From: Harriotta raleighana
Taxonomy: Eukaryota
Assembly: GCA_050575255.1 (NCBI GenBank)
Contig: JBNZDD010013542.1
Span: 1,054,369 to 1,118,368, forward strand
Direction: 5' to 3'
Length of the DNA stretch: 64,000 nt
Shown: positions 3,001 to 54,300 of the stretch, one piece after another
Numbering within the stretch: position 1 is the stretch's first letter
Layout of the letters: each line of letters starts with the position of its first letter
Position numbers and translations under genes: made by a program
The notes under the pieces: model-generated
The model's database searches: none
What the model saw: only the letters and a program-made list of their open reading frames with translations
Told to the model about the DNA's origin: nothing

Positions 3001-3708
3001 GGCCATACAGGCTTACCTGCCGGCTTGTTGGTGTGTTGAGGAGAGCATGTCTTGTGTGTGTTGCTGCCAAATGTTGTGCATCTCACAGTGACCATGCCTT
3101 CCGCACTTCTGTGCCTTCCCTTTCTCCCTGTGTGTAGATATTCGTTGGGGGATTTTATAACACTCTGCACAATTTTACTGCGATTATGAGTGGACGTTGA
3201 TTGCGCCATCCTGCGGATTATGTAGATTTGCCCTGATACTGTTTGGCATCAAAAAGTCATGTTTTTTTCCCCCCGGAGGTCGTTGTCACCCTTTGAATGT
3301 TTGTGTGAAATCACGGGTTACATGAAATTTCTATCTAATTGGTCGAAATTGGATTAATGCCAATCGCCCGCCTCGAAAAACCAGCCATTAAATCTTATTA
3401 AGGATAGGTGATATATAACCGTATCCATGACAACGGCTGCGCCCTGTTATTGCTGGAATATGGCAATGTTACTTTGATTCCCTGCATCTTTTAGACTCAA
3501 AGACGCCCAAGAATCAGACCGTTTTTCTACATAGAATTACTTTCTTCTAAGGTGAGCCATCAAGCCACCGCCCTTCCCACGCTCTGTTTGAAGGCTTGAT
3601 CTCTAGTGGTGGTGGGGTGGGGGCCGTATAGAATAACGGATTGAGAAATCGACCCATTTCCGGGGGGAAGATTTCGAAGTTTGTATAGTGAATGGAATGT
3701 GTTTCTAT

Positions 3709-3752
3709 TGACCTCGGGAGGTCAAAGGTAACCTTGACCGGACGGAAGTTCA
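3709..3752. promoter_or_regulatory. Composite nuclear-receptor half-site cluster
   Basis: TGACCTcgggAGGTCAaAGGTAACCTTGACCG...AGTTCA: everted repeat, DR1-like and DR0-like arrangements overlap in 44 bp. Confidence 0.4.
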
Positions 3753-4751: not shown

Positions 4752-5321
4752 ATTTCGCATTTTAGAGATTCGCTCTGGTTATTGCTTAGTTAGTTCAATC
4801 ATTTGGTTTTAGGGGCACACCATAAGAGTTGGNTCGCATTTTAGAGATTCGCTCTGGTCATTGCTTAGTTAGTTCAATCATTTGGTTTTAGGGGCACACC
4901 ATAAGAGTTGGATTTATTCTAGCCACTGACTGTGCTGTCCAATTTAACCCTTCAAAATCTATCCTAAAGTATTTGTTGCTCCATAACGTCAATTTGCAAA
5001 ACCAACAATGGAACAACGTTTTAAGAAAAAACATAGCCACTGCTCTGCCCTATGAGGACAAGACAATCGAGTTGTTTGGTGGGAATAACTTTATTATATC
5101 AAATATAAGGATTATTATTATTATATCTGAATTTTCATACAATGGGAGTTGTTGTGCAGGGAAATATCTCGTGAGAATGATATGCTTAGAAAAAACACAT
5201 GTTCTGGCAGACTCTGCTTAGAGACTTTCAACGAAAAATAAGTTTCTAATCTTACAGTAACCGTGTTTCTTTTGTTATGGATTGTCCCCTATGACCAGAG
5301 CGAATCTCTAAAATGCGAAAT
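4752..5321. mobile_element. Possible MITE / inverted-repeat element
   Basis: 31-bp inverted repeat ATTTCGCATTTTAGAGATTCGCTCTGGTYAT at 4752-4782 and 5291-5321. Confidence 0.4.
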
Positions 5322-16503: not shown

Positions 16504-19500
16504 CACATATTTCCTAGATGTGTCCAAACATTATGCAAACATTATACTGAAAACAGAAAATAGAATTTAAAAAATCACAGTAACTACACTTACTGCAACA
16601 AATCCCGCAAAGCTCTTCAAAGCATTCTGAAATGTGCTTCATTAAATGCCAGGATTATTCTTATTTCTAAATCTTTGACAGACTGTCAAAGATGCATCAT
16701 GTCATAGGGTAAGATAATTTTGTTTGGTTGAGCTGAGGGGTGCATTTTGTATGAATTTCACAAAAATGTCTGGGTTGAGATTAATTATGATCCAGTTATA
16801 ACAACGTTTCAACAACAAGATTCTAATATTAATACCCCTATTACAATTCTGTATAATTTACTTCCATTAAGGAGAGTGAACAAAGTCTAACTAAATTTCC
16901 AACCCCCACAAATATCTTATACCTTTTGTATGAGATAATTTTGGTTCAATTGTAGTCAGACCACATTCTTTGAACTTTTGTTTGGTCACTCCCAGTTAAT
17001 AATGATGGAGGATAACCTTGATTTTGGTGATCATTAACAGCTTCCTGGAATTCTGAGAGCCTTGTGAGAAATGTAGATGTCTATGCATCATGTAAATGAA
17101 TGACATAAGAATGCGATAATTCTCCCTCGAGTTCCTGTCTCTACCATATTGTCTTTACATGTATTTCTACTATTTTGATAGTTTCAAAATATAAGGTTCT
17201 TTTTCTTTCTGAGAAAAAAATATCACTCAACATGGGGGAGTTGTGCTTATTTCCAACAGTGCTGCAAACACTGCTGTGAAATAGTATTAGAATGAATTCC
17301 ATAACAGTAAATCCAGTTACGAAGAAAATTGTCACACTGGATCCACATAACAATGAACGCAGTGCTAATGAAATATTTTATGAATATTGTTGATGTTGAG
17401 TTTTATTATAATATTCTTTAGTTTGAATTCCTATTGTACTTCATTTTTAAACCACCTTTAAGTAACACAGTTATCCTGTAATATTAAATAATCAGTATTG
17501 ACTATAATTCAATGCTGTGAGATTTTGAATTTGTTTAAGTTAATAGTTATCAAAGTAAAATGTCCATAGTTTGGTTCATTTTAATGATTTTTCATACAAT
17601 AAATAATTTGTTAATAAAAAATTCAAAGATAATTATACATAGTTTTATAAATTCTGTAGATTTCCATTGACAGTTAAGCAATGGACATTATGGACATACC
17701 TTGAGAGTAGCTCCCTTAATTAAGATTTTCTTATGAATTTTTTGTTCTAACTTTCTTGGAAAAGTCTTTAAAAATAATATTAATGCTTATCTAAAAGACT
17801 GGAACTTCCAGTTGAAAACTGATTTGCAGAAAATGCCAGTTTGTGATATTCACTTAATGTTGGGTGCCCTTAGTAAATATTTTTAAATTACTGAGCACAA
17901 TTGATGGTTAAGCAGATGAAAGGTTGAGGACAAGTGGAGTGGTTTCAAACAGGAGGTCACTCCTAAAATAATGGATGGGACAATTACTCCGTGAAATTAC
18001 AATTGCTCCTTTGTGATTTTTATTTAGCATAGTGCATCAGGATTGAGATATTGAAATCCGTGACTTTATTCATCGAATGACTAGCTGAGTCATACAAATT
18101 TGGGAGATCCCAGGAAAAGAGATTTGATTATCGTCTGAAAAAAGTTAAATTATTTTATTTGGTAGCCCGAGGAGTTGCCAAATGGGTTTGATCACTCAAG
18201 TGTTGTTCTGTTACTCCTGGTTGCCAACTAATGATTCTTCTGTCAAGATCTTGGATGAAAACTGGAGAACTGAACCAATGGTTGTGATTCCTTATGGTGA
18301 TACAGCCTTCCCAAATGTTGTTGTTATAACTTTCTTGGAAAACCCTTTCCAAAAAAATTATTGATAATGAACATTAAAGGACTGAAACAGGTTGTGGGTC
18401 AATCTTACACCATTCTCTGTTTACACTCCATATCTGTAAATTATCATTCTCTTCTATGATTCACCCGATCCCTTATTAAAAGTGCCAAAAGACTGCACCT
18501 CCATTATGGTTTGTGGCAAAGAATTCCACATTCCAATCAACTTCGAATTTTGCTCACTCCATTCCTTAGTTTTATCATCCACCAAAACAAATCTGTCATC
18601 TAATTGTTCCTATGAAAAATGTGAAGAAACCGTTTTAAACTTAAACTTAAAATAACCCTTACAGTATACTAGATTCATTTCATTGAGCTTGGTGAAATCT
18701 CCTTGATATGATTGAGATCTAAAGCAGACTGAGAGTTGCTTTGCCGATTCTGTGTATTCAGTTGGTTAACGTAACCCTGACCTGCCCTTGGCTCAGCACT
18801 TGAGTTCTTCCTCCTGCTTCCACTATGACCTCTCTGCTCCACCCAAAGCAAATACAAACTTTAAGTGCAGGCATTTTTTTCTTTTTCGAATGAACTTTCC
18901 AGGCTTCTGGTCTGAAAGCATCTGGAATTATCTCCACCCTTAATTGCCTCTTCCATGTTTTTTTCTTTCCTTATCTATCTTTTTTTCTGAGCCTTACCGG
19001 GATTTCACTCCGTGTTCTCCCCTACACCCCAATGACAACTCTCCTAAGTCTGTTAAAGACCCATTAAATTCACATTCATGTTTTCAAACATTTATTTGTG
19101 TTTTTTGTAAATGTATATTTGCAGTTCTTCAGTTCTGGAAGTAGCGCAGAGGAAACTCCAGTTCACATTAAGTCAAGTTTGATGAAATATTATGCCCGAA
19201 ATGTTAACCTATTCTCCTCTTTTGATTGACCTGTTGTGCAATTCCTGAGACTTTTGTTTTTGTTGCAGGTTTCCAACACCTTCATTTCCTTTTCCGCATT
19301 GGTGTTTTTTAGCTTTCTCCAGTTGTTGTGGTTTCGTGTACTGTATTTAAAGTTAGAGACAGCTGAAACCGGAAACGTGTGGCAACTCTCCATCTTGACA
19401 CCTTGAATGTGTTTGAGTGGCAGCTTGAACAGGATGTTCAGCCCACAATTTACCATCCAGTCATAAGAGTCCAACAGGTGGCGATCTACACAGAATTTCT

Positions 19501-24331: not shown

Positions 24332-24636
24332 TGATAATAATAATCATAATAATAATCCTTGCATTTGATATAGCGCTTTTCACATCTAGATGTCTCAAAG
24401 CACTTCACAGAAATATGCTGTAAAGAGAATTGACTACATATGTGGGTGAAACATGGTGGCCAATTGCAGTAACCAGTGTCCCACAAACAGCCATGGATTG
24501 AAATGACCAACTTTTTTTTGGAGGAATTATTATTATGTGTGTGGAGTAGGAAACTTGCTTAAGGTTTCGCCAAGATCTGCCTGGATTCAAACACAGGTCT
24601 CGCGCTTGTAAGGCGAGTTCTCTAACCACTGAGCTA
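24332..24636 (-). mobile_element. tRNA-derived SINE, near full length
   Basis: Same family on the reverse strand with an (ATT)n tail. Confidence 0.85.
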
Positions 24637-24921
24637 AAGCAGAGTGGTAGGTTTCTATGGGAATCAGACAGTAAGATGACCGAACAAGTCAGTCAATGGA
24701 TTTTAAACAGTGCCTGTTCTACGTTAAAAAATTCAGTGGGCGTTTCACCAACAAAATATACAGTCAATTCAGGGTACAGTATACAGTAGTCACTCCGGTA
24801 TGCATTCACAGAGGTCCTGCCAACCGTACCAGATTTAGAGGAAACCCAGTTGAGTAAAACTAATTCAAATGAACTGTAATATGAAATTTAGAAAATAATA
24901 TCACTTTAAAATAAAGAATAT

Positions 24922-32437: not shown

Positions 32438-32778
32438 TAGTCCTGTAGCTCAGTGGTCAGAGAACTCGCCTTACAAGCGAGAAACCTCGGTTCGAGTCCA
32501 GGCAAAGGAAAAGCTTGGGGAAGTTTTTTTACTTCTCGTGCCTCACAATAATCCCTCAAAAAAAATTATATTAAAAAATTTGTCAATTCTGTTTGTGGGA
32601 TACTGCTGTGTGCAATTGGCTACTGCGTTTTCCCACAAATATACGGTCAATTCACTTTATAGTATGTTCTGTGAAGCACTTTTAGATGTCTAGAAGACAT
32701 GAACAGCACTATATCAAATCCAAGGATTGTTATTATGATGATTATTGTTATTACTATTATTATTGTTATTGTTATTAT
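32438..32778 (+). mobile_element. tRNA-derived SINE, full length with expanded (ATT)n tail
   Basis: AGTCCTGTAGCTCAGTGGTCAGAG...GGTTCGAGTCC head, family body, TTA-repeat tail. Confidence 0.85.
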
Positions 32779-35295: not shown

Positions 35296-35604
35296 ATATT
35301 AATCCTTTCATTTGATATAGCGCTTTTCACGTCTTCCAGACGTCTCAAAGGGGTTTACAGAATATACAGTAGAGTGAATTGACTGTGTATTTGTGGACGA
35401 AAATGCGATAACCAATTGCGCACGGCAGTGTCCCATAAACAGTCCTGGATTCAAATGATCAATTTATTATCGTTTTTTGGGGACGGATTATTAATAGGCA
35501 TGTGGAGTAAGGAAACTTTCCCAAGGTTTCGCCCTGCCTGGATTCGAAACACAGGTCTCACGCTTGTAAACCGAGTGCTCTAACCACTGAGCCACAGGTC
35601 TCCA
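35296..35604 (-). mobile_element. tRNA-derived SINE, full length
   Basis: Reverse head GGAGACCTGTGGCTCAGTGGTTAGAGCACTCGG...TTCGAATCCAGG with body and tail. Confidence 0.85.
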
Positions 35605-37241: not shown

Positions 37242-38710
37242 CTGGATTAATAGAAACAGTCTGAAGGTTTGTTCAATAAAGAGTATGAAGGCACGATTAT
37301 CCTGTTCCCTGAAACTGCTTTGATCCTCAAAAAGTTGTTCAGAAGCTTCACTGCTCTATATTTAGCGATTCAGATCGAATAACTGGAAGTATTTTCCTTT
37401 TTATAAACTCCCACTTCGCTGAATCTCAATCAGTAGTAAGAGGTCATCGTTAACTGGATAACAGCGACTTATATCTTGGAAATCAGATCAGAGTGACAAG
37501 CTTTCCGGGTGTAATAATTTTAGTTAGAACTACAAAGAATCTTGACTGTTTATTTTGAAACATACTGCATGAGGATGTATCCACAATAAAATGACGTTCG
37601 CATGAGGACATCGACATTTACGTTACATTTATCGTCGAGAAATACACAATAATAATACGCAATACATAGCAAGACATAAACTAATGAGTATTAGAAGAGT
37701 CCAATATGAGTTCAATATCAATAATCTTCACTGTATACCTTCCAAAAAAAATCCAAGCACAGTTATCCCGAAGTGAAAATGAGCAGACATTGAGGACATT
37801 TGCACCAAATGTTCCAGTTTTTGATTAAAATCAAATGGATAGTGGTAGCCATTCGTCTACAGTGACTATGTAACTGCAATAAAATCATTTGCTTATTACT
37901 TTTTCAATCACTCTACATGTTCCAATCAATCAACCGCTCAACAGAGATCTTCAATTGGAATGCTTAGAGCACGCAGCAAAGCCTATCCAGTAAAATGTGC
38001 TTTCACAATCGATCATTCTTATTTATTTTTAGGGTATATCTTTTTTAACATCAATTTCAAGGGAATCGTGATTTTTCGACAGTAGAATTCCAAATATTCA
38101 AATGAAACTCTAGGATATATGAAATAAGGCGCCACCAGACATAGTTGGGTTGTTACATACAAAACGCGAAGTCATATTACAGAAAACATACCGTGGAAAG
38201 ATTTTGTGGATTTTTTTTACATAGAAAAAGGCTAAAACATTTGAAAATACATCAAATCAATTTTTCAAAATTACGATTTCTCTGCATTAGATTTGTAGCT
38301 ACCGGAATATATCTGAATGACTTAAGGAAACCCTTTTCAAAAGCAGAAACTGGTCACCTCGTTCCCCACTCATTTTGCGTACAAATTTTTTTATTGACGC
38401 ACAATAGATTTCGTAACATTTATCCCAATCAAAATACAAGAGGAAAAGACAAGCAACCCGTTCGCTTTTACTTCCTGTTGAGCATATACTAGTCACTTAA
38501 TTGCAAATGGCTGTAAATGAATCGTATACTGACCTTTTTGTTCCAAAGAAAGAACAAAGTCTTTCAAACCTGGCCTGTTCTTTATTCATTCAAATATCTC
38601 AAGTTATGACCTTAATAGTCGGGGGTTAGTTTGTTCCCCCTTCATTAACTCCAGAATTTATCTTGAATCGGGCATCTTATCACCCCATCGCTTTGGCGGT
38701 GAGCACTTAC

Positions 38711-39140
38711 TGGATTAGGCATGGGACTTTATGTTCTCTTAAAGGCTAGACTGTTGTCGAGGGCCGCGGCTCTCCGGCTGATTGTTGACATTGTGCGTTT
38801 CAAGTTCAACGTCAAGGTCAGGCCAGACACAAAGGAAGGAATGAGCAGCACGAACTGCAACCGGTAAACGTTTGCCTTCGTCGAAAATCGATTTGAGTTT
38901 AATTTCACGACTGGCAATAACCGAAAGGAATTGAAATTTGGATCTTTCGTGGTTTATCTTTTTTTTCCTCTTTCATTCATCAACTGTGGTTTGCCTGTAG
39001 AAATAAAAAAGAACACACGCACACAGATAGACAGACACGAAATCAATGTTGACCTTTGGCGCAATAGAGTTCGATTGAACAGTCTCACAAAAGAAAAACG
39101 AATTTGTGTCCAGGATTAAAATTAATCCCGTTAAATATGT
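38711..39140 (-). pseudogene. Putative HoxB12 pseudogene, exon 1 remnant
   Basis: 39140-39090 TYLTGLILILDTNSFFF aligns ungapped with the HoxD12 N-terminus GYVGSLLNLQSPDSFYF. LTLTLNLK near 38800 resembles the LNLN motif near the end of HoxD12 exon 1. Donor CCA|GTAAGT at 38710. Confidence 0.45.
38800..38820 (+). promoter_or_regulatory. Triple-half-site DR0 element
   Basis: TCAAGTTCAACGTCAAGGTCA. Confidence 0.5.
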
Positions 39141-41276
39141 GTTAATCGCCTAAAATGAGTGTAGTTTCTTTAATGTTTTAATAGAATACAGACACCTTAA
39201 ATGGGCAAATGCACAGGGCTATTCGGTTGGTTATTAGCCATCATGTGACGGCTCGAAAGCTTTGAAGTTCGTGGTATAATTTTAACTTCTGCCTCTTCAC
39301 ACGTCGGTTAAAGGCAAATTAAAACATGAAACATTTAATTGCATCCGCTGAAATCGAAGCTGAGCACTAACACGAGAAATACGTGTTAAACATGCGACGG
39401 TTTACCACATGACTGTATTTTAAGTACTGCTAAATAATAATTACGCTTTCAAACGCCGAATGACGTATGCATTTTGAAAGATTGTGACTCTTTGTCGTGA
39501 ATTTTAAACATTTAAAAAAATATATCTAGAAGATTCAGAAAAATATCAATCATAATGAATATTAACAGATTAACCAGATAGGTTTATATCCTGATGCCTC
39601 GATTGAATGAGTTCATTATTATCGTATCTTATGTACACACATACACACACACAATTTTTTTTCGAGCTTCCTGAAAGATGGCTTACTGAATTCCTTATGG
39701 GAGTGTAACGAATCTCACCGACTGTCATTACTGACAGAACCAAGGAACAAAACAGTGAAGAAAATAGTGGATTAAAAAATTGTATCTCAATTGTGTATTA
39801 ATCTGGAAATTAAATTTCCAACCTGATTGCAGCCGGGTGCTCATGTGTCTTCGTCAAACGGGGACTTTGGTGACTTTTTGCATCTAAGATGGTTTGGCTA
39901 GTTATTTCTTCCATCACGAGTGTTTTCATGTGTGTACAGTATAGCAAAATGCACGCATGTTCAAATATTCAACAGGCTTGCGCGTTTATGTTAGCCAATA
40001 ATGGATGGAGCTCCAGGCAACAACAACAAAAAAACACATTTTAAAACCAAGGTGGGGAATTGTAAGTATTTATGAGATTGCAATATATTCAGTTATACAC
40101 CTTACTTGAAAAACGTGGGAAGTATGCATATTCTTACAGTACTAAGATTAGTGCTACTTATGAAACAGCTGTGCAATTAGTACACAGCCATACTACACAA
40201 CGATTATCGCAATGAAAATTCGTGATACATATTCTCATCAAACAAAATGGTTTTGAAACCGTCTTTACGAGAAATAGTCATTTCAGGGGTTTCCAAGCAT
40301 TTTCTACTGCAAGAATGGCTTAATGTTAAGGCTAAATGTTCATCGACCTGGAAGTATTGGTATTAGATCACAATCGATTTCTATCACTCTAGTAACAATC
40401 TTTTTTGTAGGTTTACTGACAACTGAAACAAGCAAAATAATGGAATACAAATAATGGGATACAAATTGAGAAACATGCAGATTGATTTCAGCTCTTGGGC
40501 TGTGCTCTGCACACATAATGATCTGACCATTAGTCTTGCCAGTCAGTGATGGGTCAGACAATCTTGCTCTATATTTATATACAACATATTTTGTCCCTTC
40601 CGACTAAATACGCAGTACAGAATTTAATCAATTCAGAACCACGCGTTGGACATAAGGATATTCTTTAAGGAACGTTGAAAGCATATGATTGTGAATATCT
40701 TCATGTCTTTAACAATTCTTGATATTTCTTACCACTGTCCTGAAATTAATTCTGACATTAGTAACATCTACGGAAAGATTTTAATGATCTAATTATGTCT
40801 ATTTTTCTTCCCCCTGAAATCATTGATGAATTTCAAATGTTTGTATTATATATAGACAATAGTTTATTATTCTATTATATTGAGAAGGTTATCACTTATT
40901 TCCTCAGTTTAAGCATTGTAAATAATCAAGCTCTATTGAAACTCCACCCCATTTTTTTAGAAAGTGAGGGACTTTTACCAATTTTGTCACGTACCGTGGT
41001 TCCTAAGGCAATGGTAACCAAGTAACTCGTAAAGGCAAACAATTCAATGGTTACCTAATGGTCATTTTGCTTCCATCTTGATCGTCACTCTTTACAGAAA
41101 TTCTCGCTTTTTCTTTAGACAAAGACTGGTCCTGGAAAAACCAACAATGTGGTACTGAGCGACATAACAGAAGATGGCGCACTTGGCCTGTACATGTCAG
41201 CAGTTCCAAGAAAGACCCTGTGATTATTCATAAACTGCGAGAAGTCAAGGTCGCTGGCGAGCCCACACGTGACCGC

Positions 41277-41290
41277 CAAGGTCAAGGTCA
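41277..41290 (+). promoter_or_regulatory. Perfect DR0 nuclear-receptor element (NR6A1/GCNF-type) next to an E-box
   Basis: CAAGGTCAAGGTCA; CACGTGAC at 41266-41273; AAGTCAAGGTCG at ~41242; Abd-B-type TTCATAAA at ~41227. Confidence 0.55.
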
Positions 41291-42022
41291 AAGGCTTATC
41301 AGCGCCCTTAGATCTCGGCAATTTAAACTCTAACCTCTCACGCCATCACCCCTTGACCCATATACAAGGCCGGAGCAGGCCTCCACCAATACAAACGATA
41401 CACAAGTATATTCACATTCATTCCTTCACTGCTCTCCACCCTCTACACACACACACACACAGTCGCATCAATGTGCACGTAAACACCAGCACACATTTTA
41501 CAGTGTACCTTCTAAATCCCAGTTTGCTCGTGTGCCTTGATAATGGCACAGACTCCAAGCTACAGTGAAGCGGCCTCCACGAAGGGAAATCACTCCTCCT
41601 TTTATTTTAGTTTCCAATTTCATTGATTCTTATCCATCGATTGTTAGCATCAATAAGCTGCCATATCCCTCCCTCACTTGTTTGGTGCCTGGCGGATTGT
41701 ATTAAAATACTGCCCCGGGGGTGGGAGTGGGGAGGGGGGGGGGAGGTGGGTTGAGGGGTTGTTTGCCGTCGACTATTTATTGGTCTTCAATTGTATAAAC
41801 CAGACGCTATTAGAGGTGTGAAGTCCAGGCGGATTTAGCTCATGTTTTGCCTGTGTTTAGCTCTGTAATGATTGTTCCCAAGCTTATATTAAATCACTTC
41901 CCTTTTTTTTCTCAATCTACAAAGAAGAAAAACGCGACTGTTCAGTGCCCGCGCAACACGTTATTTTTCGCATAGTTTTGTTTTACTCTCGGAATCTTTT
42001 TGTTGTTGTTGAAAGCACACAG

Positions 42023-42037
42023 TTTATTCAATTTATT
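42023..42037 (-). terminator. Probable HoxB13 polyadenylation signals (two AATAAA), implying about 1 kb of 3'UTR
   Basis: Plus-strand TTTATT at 42023-42028 and 42032-42037, followed on the minus strand by GT/T-rich sequence. Confidence 0.6.
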
Positions 42038-43000
42038 GTAATAGTTTGAAGTGAGCCTTTGTGAGTGCCGTTGAATTTCTCACAAATTCACTCTGGCCAC
42101 AGTTTAAAACCCCCTTTATGATGTATATATATATATTGAATCAGCATTGAACAATTAATTATATGTCAACAAGAGATGCAAGTAGCTATTATATCTATTT
42201 TAGACAGGTTTGCGGGATGTCCAGCAATACATTTTTATATATATATGCATTATTACGTGTATATATATATATAGTGCACTTGTGAACTAAAAGAATTCAC
42301 ATAACAACGTGTCTCGGCGAAGGTAAGACTCTTGTCCTATTCATTAACATGTTTGTTTTTGAAGAAAAAAAGGTGATAATTATTTTACGTATCTTTGCTA
42401 TTCACAACTTGCCATGAAAACCCCAAGGTGATTTTGGTAAGATCTGAATGCCTGGGATCCAAATCTTCCAGTGCAAATTTTGCAATTTAAAAAAATCAAA
42501 TTAGTAGAGTCACAAACGTGTTCTTATTTCTGTTTCATTTATTACGTTAGACCCTAACCCGGTGTAGTAGTTTCAAATAACGTTAATGCGATATATATTG
42601 CAGCCTTGCCTTTTATAGTGAACGGATTTTAATTCATTCCCCAGACACAAAAAATAAAAAGAGCAACTACACCAATATAACACACATCGCAGAACGTCAC
42701 TACACACAAAAAACTGCTAATAAACTGCGGTGTTGGTATAGATACAGGTTCGTTATAGTTATATTTACATTTTGTCCATTTACTTAGTCCATTTAATGGC
42801 ATTCATTCACAAATCTCCTGTTGCAGTACTAAAAATGAAAATAGAGGACGTATTAGCAATTTGCAGACAAAGACTCGGCGAAAGACGCGTTTGCACTTTA
42901 AGCTTGTAGTATTTGGTAATTGTCTCTCTTTATACCTGCGTTAAGCGCCAACTGAACAGTACAGTACGATTCATTTTCCTTCTCCAGATTTTTCTCCCAC

Positions 43001-43248
43001 TTAAGTCGTGTTGCTCTTTACTTTGGCCACGATTTTCTTTTCTTTGACCCTCCGGTTCTGAAACCAGATGGTGATCTGTCGTTCGCTGAGATTCGTAGCT
43101 GCAGAAATCTTCCTTCTCTTGTCTTTTGTGATAAATTTGTTGGTTCCGTATTCCCTCTCCAGTTCTTTGAGTTGAACTTTTGTGTATGGGATTCTTTTCT
43201 TCCTTCCACGGCGAAATTGACCAGCGTCCTGTTGGTGACCCACCACAT
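43001..43248 (-). CDS. HoxB13: Homeobox protein Hox-B13, coding exon 2 (homeodomain)
   Basis: [90 protein letters not shown] and AKVK are B13-type rather than A/C/D13. Tandem CAGCAG acceptor lets the exon start at 43251 or 43248; TAA at 43003-43001. 676+248=924 nt, 307 aa. Confidence 0.97.
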
Positions 43249-43591
43249 CTGCTGTGTGTAGGTTTGCCACGCAAAGAAAGACACAATATTTTTTTTTAAA
43301 TCTCACAGTACTTTAATTTTTTTTCAACAGTATTTTTACTTTTCATAAACTCCCAGCGTTTAAAATTTAAAACAAAAAACGATTTGTTTCAAAATACAAA
43401 TTTCCCGTTAGCGCTGTCACACGTATAACTAACTCTACTGCAAGCTATAACTCGGCATATTTTCAGAAATAATTTCTGCTGCTGTTGATACCGATTCATT
43501 TTCACAACAAACAGCAGAAAGCGAGCGCCGATCGCTTCCAGCGATCACGTTTCTTCACCACAAAATAACACAGGATCTGATTAATTATTAC
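43249..43591 (-). other. HoxB13: HoxB13 intron (about 343 nt, GT-AG, phase 1)
   Basis: GTAATA donor and ...TACACACAGCAG acceptor; splicing restores the frame (LS-D-VV). Confidence 0.93.
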
Positions 43592-44267
43592 CTGACAATG
43601 TGGACTTCCAGAGGTGAGCCGGTTGTGCTTGTTCTTTACAGTACATCTGGCTGTTCCATCCATTGAGGGCCCAAGGCTGGTAGCTGTCCATAGGTAACAA
43701 AGCCTCGTGCCTCGGCTCTCCTGCCCCACTAATGGTCTGCACTACAGAAACGTCCAAATAACTTGGCATGGGCTGGTATGGGCCAGCGTAGCCGTGGTAA
43801 AAGGCGAATTCCTTAGCCCGGCCTGGGTAATCATCGGTGGGCACTGGAGTGTCCATATATTTGTCTCCCGGATAATTCGACAAGGCGGCAGGCTGGGTGC
43901 AAGACTTAATTGGACCTCTACCCATTCGGCACGAGTAGTAACCGCTGCCGAAATATCCGTAAGGCAAAGGGGCTGCGGGAGAGCCCTGGGGAAGGGGCGG
44001 GCAAGGACCACATTGCTTACCGGGCTCCCCTACCCCAGAACCGGACATATCGACCGTGGAGTAACCGGAGCCATGAACCAAAGGTGCGGGGTGTCCTCCC
44101 AGCGCCGAGTGAGCCATCAGATTCCTGCATTGATTCGCGGAGAAATTCCCAGTGTTGACGAATCCTTCCATTACGGCGCTATTCTTTTTAATCTCATTCA
44201 AGTTATTATCATACACGAACATCACAGAGTCGACCCAACGCGGCTTGAGAACCAGTGAAACTGTCAT
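43592..44267 (-). CDS. HoxB13: Homeobox protein Hox-B13, coding exon 1
   Basis: ATG at 44267 begins [22 protein letters not shown] (Hox13 N-terminal motif). Contains [42 protein letters not shown] and [17 protein letters not shown]. Ends WKSTLS at a phase-1 donor CAG|GTAATA (GT starts 43591). Confidence 0.97.
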
Positions 44268-44399
44268 ATCACGTCCAGCATTGGATCTATGGTTTCTTTT
44301 AAGAGACTGTAGACGAGAAAGCGATACAGAATTTCTTCCAGTGAACAACACTGACGCACTCACCCAGGTTAAAGCAACACGCTCCCTCACTGGCTCCTG

Positions 44400-44510
44400 G
44401 TTGTTCACGTGATATGCAAAGCACTTAATAAACCCCAAATACAGAATTGCAAAAGAGAGAGAAAAAAAGTTTCATTGCCAGCGAGAAATCCCTAGGTGGC
44501 ACGTGTTCAT
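44400..44510 (-). promoter_or_regulatory. HoxB13 proximal promoter region
   Basis: TCACGTGA E-box at 44405-44412 and a second CACGTG at 44500-44505 overlapping a CTCF-like motif (44489-44502), 140-240 nt upstream of the ATG. Confidence 0.55.
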
Positions 44511-47349
44511 TACAGCGAATTGCATGGAGGAACCATATCAAACAACAGGCAACGATATATCAATTAAACACAAACATGAAATGAACCTCATTTTCCTGCC
44601 GGGAAAATGCGGGCTTCAAGTTCATTTAATGTGTTCATTGCATAATCGATTCTTTATCTGATTAACTTTACAAAGACTTGTTTCCACGGTTGAACATAAA
44701 TTCAGTTAGCATTCGCGTTGTTTTTCAAAGTGCAGCAACCTTAACGACTATTATCTATTTCCCCCATCGCTATTCAGTTAGTTTGAGCTCCATTTCAGCC
44801 TCTTTTCTTCAGACAGGTCATTAATGTGAAAAAATAAAACCAGAAGCAAGGCTTTTCGGTGAAAGAACACAGGTTAAAAACACGCACACATGCACAATAC
44901 AATAATACCCAAGAGGAGGCCTGCAGTGATTACGTTATTTTGTCTGTGTTTGAGATGTCATTTGTTTGTTGGCTATTTCTACCAGTTCTTTTCATTAACT
45001 TCGTGAAAGTATTTAAGTTTTGTTGCGGGTCTGAAGACACCGAAAGTAAAACGGTCCTCGGTGGGATTCTGAAATAAGCATTTTCCACAATGAAAAACTA
45101 CACATATTGGAATATACTAGCGTATTTCAAAGAAGAGCTGCGTGCCAATTATAGTATATTCTAACCGCATCGTTTCAACTTGAATGTCCAAACAGTGGCT
45201 AAGCTGTACTGCTCTCCATAAACCTCTTCAATGTTTTAATTTTTCACGTATGTTACAATGTAGTATACCTATTCGGAAATCTGTACTATATATAAATTAT
45301 ACATCTCAACACTATTGTGATTTTCCTGTGCTATTTATACCTCCGGTTACACCAGTGAACTTTCATTACGTTGTCAACAAACCAATTTTACTCAATAAAG
45401 TCTTAGTAATTGACAGACAGATTTATATCTGGTTTTGATGTTGTACTATGATTATATGAAAGTCGTATTAGCTTTTACGCTAGAATCTTCAACAGGGTTA
45501 ATGGTGTCTAACGGTCCTTTACACTCACAAAAAATGCATTTATTTCTATTTTCCTGTTCGATACTTATTTGCAAATTGGATGCATTTCTCTCTTTAATTG
45601 GATTGAGTCACGTTGGAGTAGTTAGCTCAGAAGCCATTTATTTTCTCAACTATGCCAACTGCATGGGTATATATACAGATTGAAAATGCACCTTCTTTCA
45701 ATCCAATATTTTATCGCTACTCAGAAACCAATGTGATTCGCTCTAAATTTCTGCAGTATACGTTTATGCACGCTGCTATATGGTTACACTGCCAAGTAGG
45801 CTGTGCTTCAATGTTAACTGGTTTAATTGCTAAATTAACTCATATTCAAGCATAGGGATTTTGACTGAAGCTTGGTAATTAAAAAAAGCGAATTTATAGG
45901 ACACTGGAAATCGCCCTTTCACTTCAAACTGATTGCTGTGGTTGAAGAGTGTAAGGCAATAATAATTTTTAATTTGTAGCAAAGATACACTTATTATTCT
46001 TTCAAAATCCTTGAAGATTATTTTGGTTTTAGTATGTCGCAGAGTGAATCCATTAGCATGAAATTTACATTTTGGATAACCCCTATGTGTTTAGTTGGCA
46101 TAGTACATCTTGGAAGAATGAACGAATATTTTATTTATGACTATAGAACAATGTGCGGTACTTATGCAAACGTTAGATAACGAGAGCATCAAATAAAGAC
46201 AAAGGTGGTGACTTTTGGAAAGAATGTTGCTTCAGATCGAGTAGAAAAGGCAAAATAGAGTGTAGCTGGACATTTGTACATTTTACAACCAAATTCGGAC
46301 AGTCAGTGGTTCAGTAGCTCAGTTGGTTGAGTAAGTTATGATGTTGAGACAATATTTTACATGTATAAATGCACCAATTCCACAACCCTCAGAAAGAGTA
46401 CGCCTATTATATCCCTCGTCTTGAATGGTAAATGAACAGCAATTAAAAATATCCAATCCTACTTATTTTTCCAATTGCTACACAAACCCCGCACCGCCTA
46501 ATGGATTTTCCATTAAGACCACCCCAATAAAATGATGCATGTGCATTAACATGCCAATAACACTACATGGAAAAGATTACGACTAGAAATAAACTACTGA
46601 ATTGGGATATTTTAAATATATATATATTTTAAACCATGAACAACATATGAAGCGAAATTTCTAGAAAGTACTCATCATAAGGCAAGTATATCTTGAAATA
46701 ATGATTTTATTAACAGCAAGCTCCAAGTCGGTCTCTGCTTTAAAGATTTGGGATGATCTAATATCTTGAATATCTATCGGTATCTTGTTGTTGTATTGCT
46801 TCCGATAACGAATGGTGCAAAATACCAAATCAGACTTACTCTGGACTGGGCTGTGCCACTAAACTGCCTTGATTTATTAAAAAAGCCTTATCAAAGAAAT
46901 CACAAATAAAATGTTCAATAGCCTTTTTCTCCTCTGAGTAATTCGACGTCCCATTCGGTAAATAAATGTAATGTATTGTTGTTGTTGTTAGACTACTTCT
47001 TACCATTACAGTGTGGAAAACCCAAAGGACCTCGGTCTGTCACGTATATAGCTGTTATTTTTTTGCTTCCCCCCACCCCCCAATCCAAGTTACATATTGG
47101 ATATCCGAGAATATAATATGTTTACTTCCACATTAATGATAAAATTTAATCAATTATTACTGTGGACATCGAAAATTCAAACAGTAAATTGAGGACTGTG
47201 CTTAGATTGCCAGTAGAAGTTTGAGAGACGTGTTTTTGGTGGTGGTGGGAGGGGGATGGTTTATGCGGAAGAAAGTTAGGCCGAACTTGAGACAGAGGCA
47301 ATTTAACAGAGTGGCCTTTTTTACATACGGTTCAGACACGGCTGAAGGC

Positions 47350-47363
47350 CAAGGTCAAGGTTA
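47350..47363 (+). promoter_or_regulatory. DR0 (NR6A1/GCNF-type) element
   Basis: CAAGGTCAAGGTTA preceded by AAGGC (a third half-site). Confidence 0.5.
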
Positions 47364-47433
47364 AAGCTAAGAGTCTAGTCACTATGAGGCCTGTCCTGTC
47401 TGAACCGCATCAAAACAAAACCCTTTATCGCTT

Positions 47434-47482
47434 CAGTGATTCTTTTCTTAGCTCAGACAACTATTCGGAAGCCAATAATGAC
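47434..47482 (-). pseudogene. Possible HoxB14 exon 3 remnant (VKIWFQN...KEKKLL)
   Basis: GTCATTATTGGCTTCCGAAT...TAAGAAAAGAATCACTG resembles GTCAAAATTTGGTTCCAGAAT...AAAGAAAAGAAACTACTG. Position fits the intron-split Hox14 homeobox, but it needs gaps and the acceptor is mutated. Confidence 0.3.
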
Positions 47483-48799
47483 CAGCTTGGAGGAATCGCG
47501 GATCAGTGCGAGACAAGGTGGTAAAACAACCCTTTTTTTTAAACAAAAGCAGTTTACAGATGATTGTATACACTGTGGTTCGACCATAATACTGGGAATC
47601 AGCGGATCAGCATTTGCTACCCCCCAAAATATGAAATATTACGAATAAGACTTTTATCCACAACACCGTATCTGGCCCCCAAAGTGTAAAAAATATTAAA
47701 GAAATTTCATTAGGGTTCATGCAGTTTGAGAATTTTATTGCAGGCACAATATTAGGGGCACGTTATAACTGCATCTAAATGTGTTTCACAACAATCTGCC
47801 GACGAGACATACCTCAGCCAATACACCAACCTGAATGAAGCCCTGACTGTTAAAACTTCAAGATATGAAACTTGGACAGAAGGGAGAGAGAGAGCGAGAA
47901 ACAGCACTGATGTTTTCAGTCACTCACTCAGGTACTGTTGACATTTTAATGTATCCTTAGTTTTATTTTTGCGTGTGATTTGTGTAGAGTTCGGGTATAC
48001 GAGTGTGTACTGTCAATGGCATGAGACATTTGCGAATGTCTCAGTATGTGTAAAGAATATATTTCTCTATGCTAGCTCCTTGCTAATTAATTGTTTAATC
48101 AATCTTTCGGCCCATACGATTATTTGTGTTGGCAACTAACTAATACATGTGAGGTGAAACTGCTTAACGTGTAAACATGATTTTTCCCAACGTTGTTTAG
48201 GAAGTTGGATCATGGCATTTTGCAATTGAAACTCAGAAAGGGTTAACAATGTGGCTGAAAAATGAAAGCACCTTTTTTTTACCATTTATAAATCATCCTG
48301 CATAACGCCGAATCACTCTTAAAGTGCAGTTAGTATCGAAATCTGGGAATGATCATCCAGTTTAAAAAATTGGCCTTTTTGGGAAAAAAAAGTTTATCTA
48401 TATGCCTAATCTTATATGGGCTTCGTGTTATAAATGCCGGTCTAAAACAGTTAACAGGCCCAGTACTGTACATCAGTTAGTTTGGAGTGGGCCACATTGA
48501 TATCTGTCCTTCATCTTTTACCGTTCTTGTCATGAAATGCGTTTTAATGTCGGCTTTCAAATTCAGAAAACGTAGCCTCACGCTCATCATAAACGACCCA
48601 GCTATACAACACAAACTAACTATTTGTTTCTATCAATAGAAATCACGTCCATTCCCCCATCCTCTGCTGCCGACGTTTAAAAGTCAATTAGAATGGGCGG
48701 TTAGATTTATCGAAATATATAGATATATATTACGAAATCGAAAGCATCGGGTATCAAAATCTGTTTGTGAAAAAAAATCCAAGGAAGAAAAGAAAAACA

Positions 48800-48925
48800 A
48801 TATCAGATGATTTATAACTGATTCGATGCTACGTTGGGTGTTGACTCTAATGAGAATCTACAGAACCTTGACTGTTTCGTTATATTCTGCTGCCTGGCAG
48901 GAGAGCTCTTTGTGCGCAATTACCC
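48800..48925 (-). pseudogene. Decayed Hox14-type homeobox 5' part (putative HoxB14 pseudogene, exon 2)
   Basis: Acceptor TTTACAG| at 48926. From 48916: RTKSSPARQQNITKQSRFCRFSLESTPNVASN, then a 2-nt deletion, then (I)SYK. Ungapped match to Hox14 RKKRVPYSKHQITELERAFEENRFLTPE(I/V)RLNISFK at R, K, P, IT, R, TP, V, N and S-K. Confidence 0.7.
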
Positions 48926-49674
48926 CTGTAAATGATTTAGTTCCCAATAGAAACATGGAGGCTTTGCCCTACTTTTAGACTTGGTGGAAAATAGCCCATT
49001 GAAAAATAAATTAATATAAAATTAATAAGTGAGTATTTGTGGAGATTGAAATATGTCCCATTATTATCAGTATGCAGTTGAACTGCCTCAATATGTACAA
49101 AGAATAAGGCAAAGTTTTGCTCCTTAATCTCCATAATATATTTGTTGATATACGTGAACATGCCGAGGTTTAAATGTGCTCCACATTCTTACAAAAGGGC
49201 ACAGTCACCTATAAATTCGGACCAAATTTATAGGTGTATCTTATGCACATACATACAAAAACACATACATTTGAATAATATTTTTGTGAAGCAATTCATT
49301 TGTTTAATTCATGCTTGGTTCAGTTTCAACCCTTTTCAGTTTGTAATACGTTGTATATAATTTGCTAAAATATCTATTTCAACGTAATAATTCACATTTT
49401 GCTCTATTCAAAGTCAAGTAGTTGCCAACACAAGATGGTTTTTAAAATTATATTGCATATAAAAAAATTAATCTTTTAAAAATATAAAAATAAGTTTAAC
49501 GATTAATCCAAATATTTTAGTTTTTAGATAAATGTTTTAATATCATTAAACTCCAGCCCTAACCACCTCTAGAAAACAAATTAGGTAACTGACACATTGG
49601 TCAACATATAACAATTAGAATACCTTCTAATATCATGTGAAACAAACTCGATATATTTTTATATAATTTATAAG

Positions 49675-49975
49675 GGCGAAACCTTAGACAAGTTTCCTTA
49701 TTCCCCACTTCTCATCTTTCCTAGCAGTGAGTAGGAACCCAGTTAGTTAATTGGCGGATCGCTTTCTGGGGATAATAATCCCTTCAAAAAGAAAATTGGT
49801 CGCTCAATCCATGACTGTTGTGAGACACCGCTCACAACAATTGGCTGGCGAGTTTTCTCACAAAATGCACAGTCAATCCATTTTGCAGTATATTCTGTGA
49901 AGCGCTTTGAGAAGTAAGTCTCAATATGATGAGACGTGATGAGATCAAATGCAAGGATGGTGATTATTATTATTA
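49675..49975 (+). mobile_element. SINE lacking most of its head
   Basis: GGGCGAAACCTT...AAGTTTCCTTA...CAGTATATTCTGTGAAGCGCTTTGAGA...TCAAATGCAAGGAT. Confidence 0.7.
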
Positions 49976-51287
49976 ATTATGGGACGAAATTGATTTAGCA
50001 CAATATTCCTGACCAAGTGAAATAGATTTCCTGTAAATTGACTGAGAAATGGAAATTCCGTCGTTAACGACTGATGCACTCAAACCTGCAAATTACTGAA
50101 ATATCGATCTCTGTATTCTAGCCTGAATTTATCTCGCCTGTTGGCATATCACTGCAAATAAAAATAACCAACCGTATATCATGATTCATTTCCTGCCTCT
50201 ATTTCACTGAAGTTTCTCTACAAAACACGTTTACATTTTTGTAGGAAATAGCTTTGACTGACAGGGGAAACAGATTGCTTCAAGTCGAATAGCAATTGCA
50301 ATCCAGTTTCCAGTTGAATTTCTTTTTCCAGTATATTCTCTTCAACCGAATTGATGCCTTTTAACGAAAAGGTCCAAATGATCGTATGATCTGTAAACCT
50401 CATGTAGTTTGCATTTAACTTTAAATGTATTTAACTCCAAGTGCAAAATCAGCAAATACACCCATAAATAGATGCAATAAATTAAATGGCCTTGGCCATT
50501 ATATAATTTGTTGATTATTCGTGTCGTGCTCACGTGCAGTTCAATAACCGTGTGTAACTGTGCTGGATAAGTTGTGATAATTATCAAAGGTGACAATTAT
50601 CACATGACGTAAGGCATGTCGCTCTCAGTGACGAATAGAACGATATAAAAACGTAGAGGATGAGACATTAGTTGCACAAATCTGTCCACCTAAATATCAA
50701 AGTAATACTTCTGGAGCACAAATGGCATTTTCCCACAGGTATTAAAGAATTTCCATATTGGTGCATCGCGTGTTTATTCAAAGAAAGGCATATTCTAGAG
50801 TTTTACAATTCTATTTTACAATACGGAATATTCCTTTCGCGTTTACATAAACCTACCATGCAGCCTCGTAAATATATGTTTATTCGATTATCGAATGGCT
50901 TATTGGAAATAAAAAAGGAAACATGCAAACAAGGGGTAATAATTATAATCCTTGCATTTGATATAACGCTTTTCATGTCTGCTAGATATCTCAAAACGCT
51001 TTACGGAATACACTAGTCAAGGAGAAAGGAAAAGGCGAGAGTGCAAAAGGGGGAAAAAATGAATTCGGGAGAAAGACAATGAAAGAGAGTGTAAAAAGAG
51101 AAAGTCAGACAGACAGAGCGCGACAAAGAGAGCCAGTGTGTCTGTGAGAGAGAGGGGGAGAGAGAAATCGTGTGAGCCCTACCATACCCAGATTTGCTGG
51201 GGCTGTAGGCGGTTTCTGTTTACGTTTGAACACCCAATCACGTCGTTTTGTATGACTTGCCAATCATTGGGGGCCAGACAGCGCTTT

Positions 51288-51301
51288 TGACCTTGAACTT
51301 G
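51288..51301 (-). promoter_or_regulatory. DR0 (NR6A1/GCNF-type) element near CCAAT boxes
   Basis: Minus strand CAAGTTCAAGGTCA; CCAAT at ~51234 and ~51260. Confidence 0.5.
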
Positions 51302-54300
51302 GCTTCTAACAATTCCGAGCTTTCCAGTATTTATCGTAGATGCAACATCAGGCACATATATGGAGAAAATATACACGTATATGCATATCTTTCACGTTAA
51401 TAAAGTAGCGAGAAAGCTGATTGAAACTATATGTGTACCCGAGTTTGTATATATGCTCTCATGTGTATATTTAACGTAGATTATTTGGAGCACAAATTAG
51501 ATTTGTCTCACAGCATGTCATCACGCAATATGGCGCGTGAATCGATTCCCTTCCCTTTCCTTTTGCTCAGTGACCAACGCAGTCTTGTCAAGCGCTCCGA
51601 GTTATTATCCTGCGTTAAAGGCGTTATATAAATGCAAGTTGTTGTTGATATTGTTGTTTATTGCACACACATACATTGACGGTTTATAGAAGGAATGCTT
51701 TAATTGGGGTGAATGCTTCAAATCTCTGTCTGTATGCCGGTATGCCAACTCCCCTCACACAAAGCAGCCAATGTTTGTTAGGTTGAATGAAACCCCACCT
51801 TGCTGTCTGGTAAATACGTGCTATGTGTTTTAACTGTTTGTCTGTATTGTACACTGTGAGTTACTTTTACAAGGTCTGGTGGGGGGTGGTGGCTATATAA
51901 AACTCTGTACATGCAGTATTGTTTTTTCGTGATCATTCAACCNCTATATAAAACTCTGTACATCATCTCCATGCAGTATTGTTTTTTCGTGATCATTCAA
52001 CCTTATGTGTAGGTTTGTAACTATGTTAGCCTGTAAATTGCGAGACGCATTATTTTTTAGATTTAGGAAAATAATATTTAATTTGAGGTGTTTATTCTTC
52101 TCCTTTTACTTCGAGGCACTGACTTGCCGATTGTAAAGATTGTTTCATTAACTGGACGTTTTTCATGTAAATATGTATCCTGCGGGATAGAAATATTTAG
52201 ATATTTTCGTCATGAATCTAATCTTAACGTTGACATTTAAAACATTTTGTTTTGAGCAAAGTAAGAAAAAAATGCACAATTATTGTACGGTTTGTGTCAG
52301 TTTCAGACACACACACACACAAGACTATGTTAAACCATTTTCTCCATTTGAATACTCAGAGAATAACACACAACTGTTGCTTTATATGAACACAAATTGG
52401 GAAAGTGGAATAATGAAAAGGAATGACCAGGATCGGGGAAAATACTGAAAACTACAAATATTCAATCCCCAACTTTCCAATAAACACGTTATATATAGCG
52501 CGTTGCAAATATTATCGTTGTATTTTAGCTTGTGACTTTGTTATTGGTAAAGGACGACAGATTTCCTGTACAAGGATGCAATGACATTAGAAGATTGAAA
52601 GTGATAGTACTGCACTCCTTCAACCGAAATAATTTAATTACAGCAAAGCTGTTTGTCCATACATGGGATGAAATGCGTGCAGTGGACTTTTTTCTTTCGA
52701 ATGAAAACGTTATTTCAACTCTTGGAGTACATTAGTTTATTTAGGACTGTGACTTGTCCTCTCGCTCAAATGAGGAAAGAAGGTTCGAAACACTTGTCAA
52801 GACTAACCCCTGATGATACCATAAGGGCTGGGATTTCTTTGGAGGAATATCCCCCGATAATATTTTAAGGTTACATTTGTATTCCATTCTGTTAAAAGCC
52901 CAACTCTAATTATGAACCCGTTTGATACTTGATTGAATAATAAATTATTAATCGACAAAAGTGTTGTTAATTATTAATCGTTTAAGATATTAAAAGAACT
53001 ATATTAACAAGAGGGACTTCACTTTGACATACTTTATACATTTTACATAGGTTTAACGTCTTCAATCACTCACAAATTAAGGAGGTGAGATTTCAGCTAA
53101 ATCATGAAATAATTTAGTGTCCAGAATTGAGCAAAAATTTGCATTCATTCTTACTTTGAAGTCCATAAAATAATTTGCAGGAAACTTACAGGATCCGTGT
53201 TTCAAAATTAAGGTTGTGTTTAAGAGTTTGCCTTATTTTTGCTGCTCTAAAATGTTACATAAATATGGTAGATCTAGCCTCGTTTGGAATGGCGGCTATG
53301 CAAAATTCAGTGCATCACATCCATACATTTTTGTTTTATCTTGAACAAACACATATTATTGATTTAAAGATATGCTTGTCGGTAATTTGTGGGCGGCCTC
53401 GTTTTTTATATTTAGGGATAAGATATTTAATTAGTCTCCGAAACGTTTATTTATTTCTTTACCTGTTGTTACTAAATCGAAAATTGTACAGTGCTCAAGG
53501 GGATAAATGAATCTTCTATCATTAATTTACAAACAAGGAGTAGGAAAGGAGAATAGATTCACTCTGAGAGAGTGAGAGTTGGGACATGCAAAGCGAACTG
53601 AAAAGGGACACTGAAGAAAATTGATTTGTCAATTTCAAACTGATCATACGTTTTTATTTGGCAGTAATTAAAATTTAAAATAAATAACTATTCATTATTC
53701 GATGTGATTCGATGTCACATTGTTAGTTCCCAAGAGATCTCATTGGACTGAACCACAAAAAAATGCATATGTGCCTGTTTGCTTGCACTTTGCACTAAAA
53801 CCGAATACATTCACATTGAAAACTCCTCAAAGCGCATCATCGATAATTATTACCAAACGTTTAGTTACTCTTTTCGTAAGCAAATCCCAGTAGACATTTG
53901 CGACAGACTGATCCTGCACAAATCCATGTTGGGATCAATTTATAAGAAAGATTAGCCGCCAAGATGGTTATATATTTCTTTAACAGAGCCGAAAAGCCTG
54001 CTTTATAGAGTGAAGCAAAGGACTGCGATCTCTCTTCTTTCATTAATTTACACACAAAACAAAGACATCGTTGTGCCAGATCACAACTGTGTTTTAGACT
54101 CGTGAGGTCAGACTTGCTATTTAATCATAGGGATTGTCACGTATCAATGTATAATGGCCACAGTCATCTTCGATGATGGATGATTAAGTGATCAGTATTG
54201 GTGATTTTTTAAAATATTGTTTCCATTCCTACGTTTTTGAATACATGTCGGGCGGTGTAAGCAAATGTAACAGGAAAACATGTTTGTGCCACAGGTTAGA

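What the first reader, a model, noticed from the sequence alone, without database searches (positions are those of the whole stretch)
38800..51301. Array of NR6A1/GCNF-type DR0 elements bracketing HoxB13
Seen: CAAGGTCAAGGTCA (41277), CAAGGTCAAGGTTA (47350), CAAGTTCAAGGTCA (51301-51288, minus) and TCAAGTTCAACGTCAAGGTCA (38800) within 12.5 kb. At uniform base composition, CAAG(G/T)TCAAGGT(C/T)A is expected about 0.002 times per 64 kb on both strands, yet three occur (pattern defined post hoc). Established: NR6A1 binds DR0 AGGTCAAGGTCA, and mouse Nr6a1 delays posterior Hox activation in trunk development. Inference: an ancient direct NR6A1 repression module timing Hox13 onset.
Basis: partly seen in the sequence, partly recalled or inferred. 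Interest (0 to 1): 0.72.

Follow-up and report, generated by a model that had tools for sequence, protein, structure and literature searches.

The report
Nuclear-receptor switch sites flanking chimaera HoxB13
Four strong docking sites for nuclear receptors surround the tail-terminating gene HoxB13 in a chimaera (a shark relative), one closely resembles a known site near mouse Hoxb13, and they are the likely but untested handles by which the repressor NR6A1 keeps this gene off until the trunk is finished.

Summary
Observation confirmed. The window is a holocephalan HoxB13 locus (301 of 307 residues as in Callorhinchus milii). Four DR0 elements lie 7.0 and 3.1 kb upstream of the ATG and 1.7 and 4.2 kb downstream of the stop. 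They are not repeat-derived, and three share an 18-bp word. Site 3 matches the published mouse 'Hoxb13 DR0' at 14 of 16 bases (0.03 expected), and a mouse RAR/RXR ChIP peak lies an estimated 4 kb upstream of Hoxb13. Site 2 sits in a block as conserved as exon 1 in a relative, but that block also holds a CTCF-like site. Three of four sites abut a Smad-type CAGACA box (post hoc). Against: two teleost hoxb13a fragments hold no DR0, site 4's block diverges at background rate, and binding is untested; RAR/RXR, COUP-TF, NR5A and ESRRB read the same DR0. Mouse Hoxb13 is uniquely Nr6a1-sensitive, mechanism unpublished in the library searched. Best reading (0.55): HoxB13-specific NR6A1 repression elements, not a general Hox13 module. 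The scan had not noted this before.

The parts
43592..44267 (-). HoxB13 exon 1, coding part
   Evidence: 98% to C. milii HoxB13; splice donor at 43591
43001..43251 (-). HoxB13 exon 2, coding part with homeobox (two possible acceptors, 43251 and 43248)
38801..38820 (+). Site 1: three abutting half-sites AGTTCA ACGTCA AGGTCA, 4.2 kb past the stop
38822..38829 (+). Smad-type box GCCAGACA directly after site 1 (motif recalled)
41080..41628 (.). Conserved non-coding block holding site 2 (20 substitutions in 549 bp in run X9)
41167..41180 (+). CTCF-like motif 110 bp from site 2 (consensus recalled)
41245..41253 (+). Extra extended half-site TCAAGGTCG, about 30 bp before site 2
41275..41292 (+). Site 2: perfect DR0 AGGTCA AGGTCA in the shared 18-bp word, 1.7 kb past the stop and beyond five AATAAA signals of the gene strand
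47333..47338 (+). Smad-type box CAGACA just before site 3 (motif recalled)
47344..47365 (+). Site 3: AGGCCA AGGTCA AGGTTA, 3.1 kb upstream of the ATG; best match in the window to the mouse Hoxb13 DR0 (14 of 16)
51273..51280 (+). Smad-type box GCCAGACA, 7 bp from site 4 (motif recalled)
51286..51303 (-). Site 4: AGTTCA AGGTCA in the shared 18-bp word, 7.0 kb upstream of the ATG

Best explanation
The four elements are functional nuclear-receptor DR0 sites whose main developmental reader is NR6A1 (GCNF). While the trunk is being built, NR6A1 homodimers sit on both sides of HoxB13, recruit NCoR/SMRT-type co-repressors and hold this one gene off; when Gdf11 signalling and miR-196 clear NR6A1 from the tailbud the gene is released. 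This would be a gene-local lock that adds to the CTCF spacer insulating HoxB13 from the rest of the cluster. Shown here: the sites, their excess over chance, non-repeat origin, constraint on the block around site 2, likeness of site 3 to the mouse element. Taken from papers: NR6A1 binds DR0 and represses; mouse Hoxb13 is de-repressed without Nr6a1. Inferred: that NR6A1 occupies these sites, that the mouse and chimaera elements are orthologous, and that a chimaera tailbud uses the mouse circuit.
For: (1) Excess over chance. (2) Likeness between sites stops 2-12 bp beyond the core and flanks hit no repeat copy at the sites. (3) All four are two or three abutting half-sites, the form NR6A1 prefers as a dimer over a monomer half-site (review section). 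(4) Mouse Hoxb13 rises over 200-fold in Nr6a1-deleted tailbuds and 25-fold in null cells even without Gdf11, called a striking exception with undefined mechanism; reanalysed ChIP gave putative Nr6a1 sites in all four clusters (PMC9755267). (5) The mouse Hoxb13 DR0 oligo (PMC7515732 supplement) has its only match at 2 mismatches or fewer at site 3; 0.03 expected, 3 of 100 shuffles. (6) A RAR/RXR peak at mm9 chr11:96051451-96051951, cluster B, an early class richer in DR0, lies about 7 kb 5' of the estimated Hoxb13 3' end, about 4 kb upstream of the start (gene length recalled). (7) Block around site 2: 20 of 549 substitutions in run X9, against 29 of 745 in exon 1 and 146 of 1496 in three upstream pieces, Fisher P 2e-6.
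Against: No binding or reporter data for any site. DR0 is also read by RAR/RXR, COUP-TFI/II, ESRRB and NR5A2. Teleost hoxb13a fragments L001 (1.37 kb upstream) and L002 (3.3 kb downstream) hold no DR0 at 1 mismatch or fewer, only one half-site at the end of L002; L002 spans the distance of site 2. The piece covering site 4 in run X5 differs at 47 of 429 bases, no less than its neighbour (90 of 1047). The conserved block at site 2 also holds a CTCF-like motif, and another block without a DR0 (39175-39805) is also constrained at 33 of 631. The variant table was cut (40 of 499 rows shown), so the state of the DR0 bases in relatives is unknown. The mouse match is not independent of both being DR0s; the oligo was not mapped to the ChIP peak. 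No mouse RAR/RXR peak was seen downstream of Hoxb13 in the held part of the table. CTCF sites alone restore most Hoxb13 insulation in gastruloids.
Confidence: 0.55

Rival explanations
1. The sites are functional but read mainly by other receptors: RAR/RXR or COUP-TF as a retinoic-acid-linked brake, or NR5A/ESRR monomers on the nested CAAGGTCA half-sites driving HoxB13 in hindgut, cloaca or reproductive tract.
For: The mouse element was found and crystallised with RAR/RXR and RXR; cluster B peaks go with ESRRB and NR5A2 binding; LRH/SF1 enrich DR0 arrangements in vitro; every site contains a YCAAGGYYA half-site; mouse Hoxb13 is first expressed in hindgut endoderm; a RAR-gamma agonist removes hoxb13a from the zebrafish tail (review).
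Against: RAR/RXR binds DR0 non-cooperatively and DR0s do not act as independent RAREs; monomers would not need tandem half-sites at all four places; retinoic acid induces GCNF, so the RA effect may run through NR6A1. This rival can coexist with the best explanation.
Confidence: 0.27
2. Only one or two sites (2 and 3) matter; the 'array' is partly chance, and any constraint near site 2 belongs to the CTCF site.
For: Site 4 lies in DNA diverging at background rate; site 1 has a mismatch; CTCF-like motif at 41167; some threefold 14-mer family appears in 5 of 60 simulations.
Against: Site 4 shares 19 of 21 bases with site 2; expected count of the 18-bp word is about 1e-5 to 3e-5 against 3 seen, post hoc.
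Confidence: 0.12
3. The motifs are neutral: chance or remains of a repeat.
For: Pattern defined after the fact; no DR0 in two teleost fragments; sites 2 and 3 align over 31 bp at 84%, which an old duplication could give.
Against: The window's SINE families do not overlap the sites; no flank homology beyond about 30 bp; all four sites fall within 7 kb of the only gene in 64 kb, P about 0.003; a like element exists near mouse Hoxb13.
Confidence: 0.06

Closest known systems
Mouse 'Hoxb13 DR0' element (PMC7515732; PDB 6XWH named there; first described by Moutier et al. 2012, not held)
   Same: DR0 near Hoxb13; 14 of 16 bases match chimaera site 3; probably upstream in both (position inferred).
   Different: Studied as a RAR/RXR-bound, non-activating element; the passages read make no link to Nr6a1 control of Hoxb13. 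One element in mouse against four here. Orthology unproven.
GCNF/NR6A1 DR0 of the Oct4 (Pou5f1) promoter
   Same: DR0 bound by NR6A1 to repress, and shared with RAR/RXR, ESRRB, NR5A2 and COUP-TF.
   Different: A single proximal composite DR0/DR1 with proven binding; here four distal sites on both sides of the gene, binding untested.
Nr6a1-dependent delay of posterior Hox genes in mouse (PMC9755267)
   Same: Same gene, same direction of effect, Hoxb13 the most sensitive.
   Different: Genetic only; no sites, motifs or coordinates given in the main-text passages or in the supplement hits seen.
CTCF insulation of Hoxb13 by the Hoxb9-Hoxb13 spacer (PMC11573545)
   Same: Also delays Hoxb13; CTCF-like motifs are spread through this window's spacer.
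   Different: Architectural, not receptor-based; that paper has no occurrence of Nr6a1.

Membership tests
NR6A1/GCNF response element (DR0) | Direct repeat of AGGTCA-type half-sites with zero spacer | tested here: met
NR6A1/GCNF response element (DR0) | 5' extension of the half-site (TCA/CCA before AGGTCA) | tested here: met
   All four hold YCAAGGYYA; extended half-site per review
NR6A1/GCNF response element (DR0) | Bound by NR6A1 in vitro or in vivo | not testable with these tools
   No binding assay; Gurtan 2013 ChIP paper not held
NR6A1/GCNF response element (DR0) | Represses the linked gene in an NR6A1- and site-dependent way | not testable with these tools
   Only gene-level mouse genetics
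Conserved non-coding element of jawed vertebrates | Constraint in related genomes | tested here: inconclusive
   Site 2 block constrained, site 4 block not; bases of the cores not shown
Conserved non-coding element of jawed vertebrates | Alignable orthologue in bony vertebrates | tested here: inconclusive
   16-bp mouse element matches site 3 at 14 bases; no DR0 or non-coding alignment in teleost L001, L002
Canonical RARE (DR1, DR2, DR5) | Half-sites spaced by 1, 2 or 5 bases | tested here: not met
   The four cores are DR0; the exact DR1/DR2/DR5 pairs lie at 41336, 33831 and 18658, outside the cores
NR5A/ESRR monomer site | Extended half-site YCAAGGYYA | tested here: met
   Nested in all four sites; 11 such words in the window, 6 in these sites; consensus recalled
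Repeat-borne motif (SINE) | Flanks homologous to a repeat family or to each other | tested here: not met

The most novel reading that the evidence does not exclude
HoxB13 carries a jawed-vertebrate-old, hard-wired trunk-to-tail toggle: composite elements in which an NR6A1 DR0 and a Smad2/3 CAGA box lie 3-7 bp apart, so that the trunk repressor NR6A1 and the tail signal Gdf11 compete on the same DNA. The mouse 'Hoxb13 DR0' used by structural biologists would be the surviving orthologue of site 3 and would explain why Hoxb13 alone escapes without Gdf11 when Nr6a1 is lost.
Probability: 0.25. Interest if true: 0.82.

Novelty: new member of a known kind. Interest (0 to 1): 0.62.

Why it matters
Whether Nr6a1 represses posterior Hox genes directly is stated as open in a 2024 review and was demanded by a referee and deferred by the authors in 2022. 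The finding names the sites and points to one mouse interval where a single CUT&RUN and a single small deletion would settle it. NR6A1 sets vertebral number in pigs and underlies a human oculo-vertebral-renal syndrome, and Hoxb13 timing sets tail length, so a direct, ancient cis link would tie body-length variation to editable DNA.

Tried and rejected
No genome is held for the window, so no genome-wide background or other Hox clusters could be scanned. HoxB13 relatives were not found in genome contigs or viral contigs; metagenome contigs gave two teleost fragments only. Laying three runs on 38700-51400 was flooded by SINE copies: tables were cut, and holes in depth are no evidence. Bins holding sites 1 and 3 are covered in run X9, but no listed piece gives their identity. 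Rfam found only three tRNA-like heads, no miR-196. Repeat origin rejected. A 3'UTR role for site 2 is unlikely: five AATAAA signals precede it on the gene strand. Hox13 gene names in the supplements of the neural-crest NR6A1 paper: none in 4 files. hoxb13a in the 9 supplement files of a zebrafish RAR ChIP paper: no occurrence, a weak negative. Moutier 2012 and Gurtan 2013 are not held. The nuclear-receptor SELEX paper has no NR6A1. The single TCAAGGCCA half-site at the end of L002 is within chance (my estimate about 0.2) and was not counted. Earlier scan notes on AGGTCA-saturated arthropod loci do not apply: this window has 34 AGGTCA and the order-5 model absorbs hexamer bias.
Full report
Identity of the window. 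The only gene is a two-exon Hox13 gene on the minus strand, ATG 44267, donor 43591, acceptor 43251 or 43248, stop 43001. Its best hit is Callorhinchus milii HoxB13; the spliced protein differs at 6 of 307 residues, against 80-82% identity for sharks and rays, so the source is a holocephalan, probably of another genus (inference). No other homeobox is present. The lower 38 kb is the repeat-rich spacer toward the rest of the HoxB cluster, with tRNA-headed SINEs.

The observation. The pattern gives 5 matches at up to 1 mismatch, 0.08 expected, 0 of 100 shuffles. Markov backgrounds of order 1, 3 and 5 expect 0.0015-0.005 exact matches against 3; a generic DR0 expects 0.17-0.31 against 4. Because the pattern was chosen afterwards I asked how often any complex 14-mer family of three arises: 5 of 60 simulated 14-kb sequences. 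So recurrence alone is worth about P 0.08; the case rests on what the word is and where it lies. All four sites are within 7 kb of the gene (P about 0.003 if uniform over the window).

Anatomy. Sites 2, 3 and 4 share GCCAAGKTCAAGGTYAAA. Sites 1 and 3 are three abutting half-sites; site 2 has one more extended half-site 30 bp away. Beyond about 20-30 bp the flanks do not align with each other or with the SINEs. Local GC is 45-54% against a window mean of 36%. A Smad-type CAGACA (motif recalled) lies within 12 bases of 3 of 4 sites, per-site chance 0.022, P 4e-5; two of the window's six GCCAGACA are at sites 1 and 4. This was noticed post hoc; multiplied over about 2000 hexamers it is near 0.1 (my arithmetic), so it is a lead, made interesting by Gdf11 being the known activator. 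A CTCF-like motif (consensus recalled) lies 110 bp from site 2.

Conservation in relatives. Of 12 runs listed I laid 3, from two organisms holding 0.12 and 0.09 of the words. The answer was flooded by SINE copies and cut: 40 of 499 substitution rows and 24 pieces were shown. In run X9 the piece over site 2 (41080-41628) has 20 substitutions in 549 bases, like exon 1 (29 of 745) and well below three upstream pieces (146 of 1496; P 2e-6). A piece with no DR0 (39175-39805) is also low (33 of 631). In run X5 the piece over site 4 has 47 of 429, no lower than its neighbour (90 of 1047). Whether the core bases are intact is not shown for any site.

Bony vertebrates. Two metagenome contigs encode teleost hoxb13a. 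L001 gives 1.37 kb upstream and L002 3.3 kb downstream; neither has a DR0 at 1 mismatch or fewer, nor non-coding homology. This counts against conservation of site 2 in that lineage; the other three sites lie beyond the distances covered. For mouse, the supplement of PMC7515732 prints a natural 'Hoxb13 DR0', gaAGGTCAAGGCCAag. Its only match in the window at 2 mismatches or fewer is site 3 (0.03 expected, 3 of 100 shuffles); site 2 matches at 3. Any DR0 resembles another, so this is modest evidence. In the RAR/RXR peak table of PMC4446430 (held part 9,956 rows, cut) one peak lies near Hoxb13, mm9 chr11:96051451-96051951, cluster B, an early class richer in DR0 and tied to ESRRB and NR5A2. With Hoxb9 starting at 96132823 and a 74-kb spacer the peak is about 7 kb from the Hoxb13 3' end, about 4 kb upstream of its start (gene length recalled). 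That the oligo comes from this peak is inferred. No row with a chr11 start at 96.06-96.07 Mb appeared (27 of 30 hits for that prefix shown, too few left for such a row).

Mechanism. NR6A1 binds DR0 better as a dimer than as a monomer and is described as a repressor working through NCoR/SMRT and DNA methylation. In mouse, loss of Nr6a1 raises Hoxb13 over 200-fold in tailbud, and 25-fold in NMP cultures without Gdf11, unlike other posterior Hox genes; the authors call the mechanism undefined and mention putative ChIP sites in all four clusters. A set of strong DR0s around HoxB13 is what direct repression predicts. I put 0.55 on NR6A1 being the main reader, 0.27 on other receptors, 0.12 on only one or two sites mattering, 0.06 on neutrality. 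That holocephalans have NR6A1 and use it in the tailbud is recalled or assumed, not tested.

What is in print. Searches: Nr6a1+Hoxb13+binding site (12 papers); Nr6a1/Hox13/ChIP-seq/motif (30 of 196 listed); Nr6a1+Hox+DR0 (7); Nr6a1+Hoxb13+Gdf11 (4); Hoxb13+conserved noncoding+elephant shark (3); 2023 onward (30 of 63; 1); GCNF+CAAGGTCA+DR0; Hoxb13+DR0 (7); nr6a1a/b. No listing or passage tied a Hoxb13 DR0 to NR6A1 or reported these elements in cartilaginous fish. Subscription journals, Moutier 2012 and Gurtan 2013 were not available and may hold this; bioRxiv supplements are closed. Seen per paper: PMC9755267 passages and supplement hits; PMC10909835 passages and section 5; PMC12957460 passages, supplement search empty; PMC4446430 passages, section 26, rows of supplement files 6-8; PMC7515732 passages and part 1 of 2 of the supplement; PMC11573545, PMC7724306, PMC11659552, PMC10345098, PMC12898243, PMC12226721 and bioRxiv 2025.03.18.643890 passages; PMC8608873 supplement search only. 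The scan's own notes hold nothing on this locus or on NR6A1.

Verdict. Real and non-random; a known kind of element at a gene where its function is an open, named question. Interest 0.62; new member of a known kind.

Noticed in passing
window 3709-3741: A dense composite of receptor half-sites (everted repeat, DR1-like, and a DR0-like CGGTCA AGGTTA on the minus strand) about 500 bp from a CTCF-like motif at 3216; a possible fifth element deep in the spacer.
   Followed up: partly
window 3216, 15121, 19471, 37124, 41167, 44489: Six CTCF-like motifs by a recalled consensus, five spread through the spacer and one in the promoter, echoing the mouse CBS5-10 series. A weaker one at 1415.
   Followed up: no
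window 18647-18831: A DR0 AGGTCAGGGTTA (18783, minus), a DR5-like pair and further half-sites within 200 bp.
   Followed up: no
window 39175-39805: Non-coding block with low divergence in run X9 (33 of 631) and no DR0; candidate regulatory element between sites 1 and 2.
   Followed up: no
window 43248-43253: Tandem acceptor CAGCAG giving a 308- or 307-residue HoxB13.
   Followed up: no
window 24575-24643, 32441-32510, 35529-35601 and many tails: A tRNA-headed SINE family with a common 3' tail, very high copy in the relatives laid; nearly absent from 37-49.6 kb around the gene.
   Followed up: no
window 41267-41274 and L001:1020-1027: CACGTGAC E-box just before site 2; the same word lies in the teleost hoxb13a promoter, and CACGTG at 44407 and 44500 in this gene's 5' region.
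   Followed up: no
window 4755-4911: Near-perfect 79-bp tandem duplication, possibly an assembly artefact.
   Followed up: no
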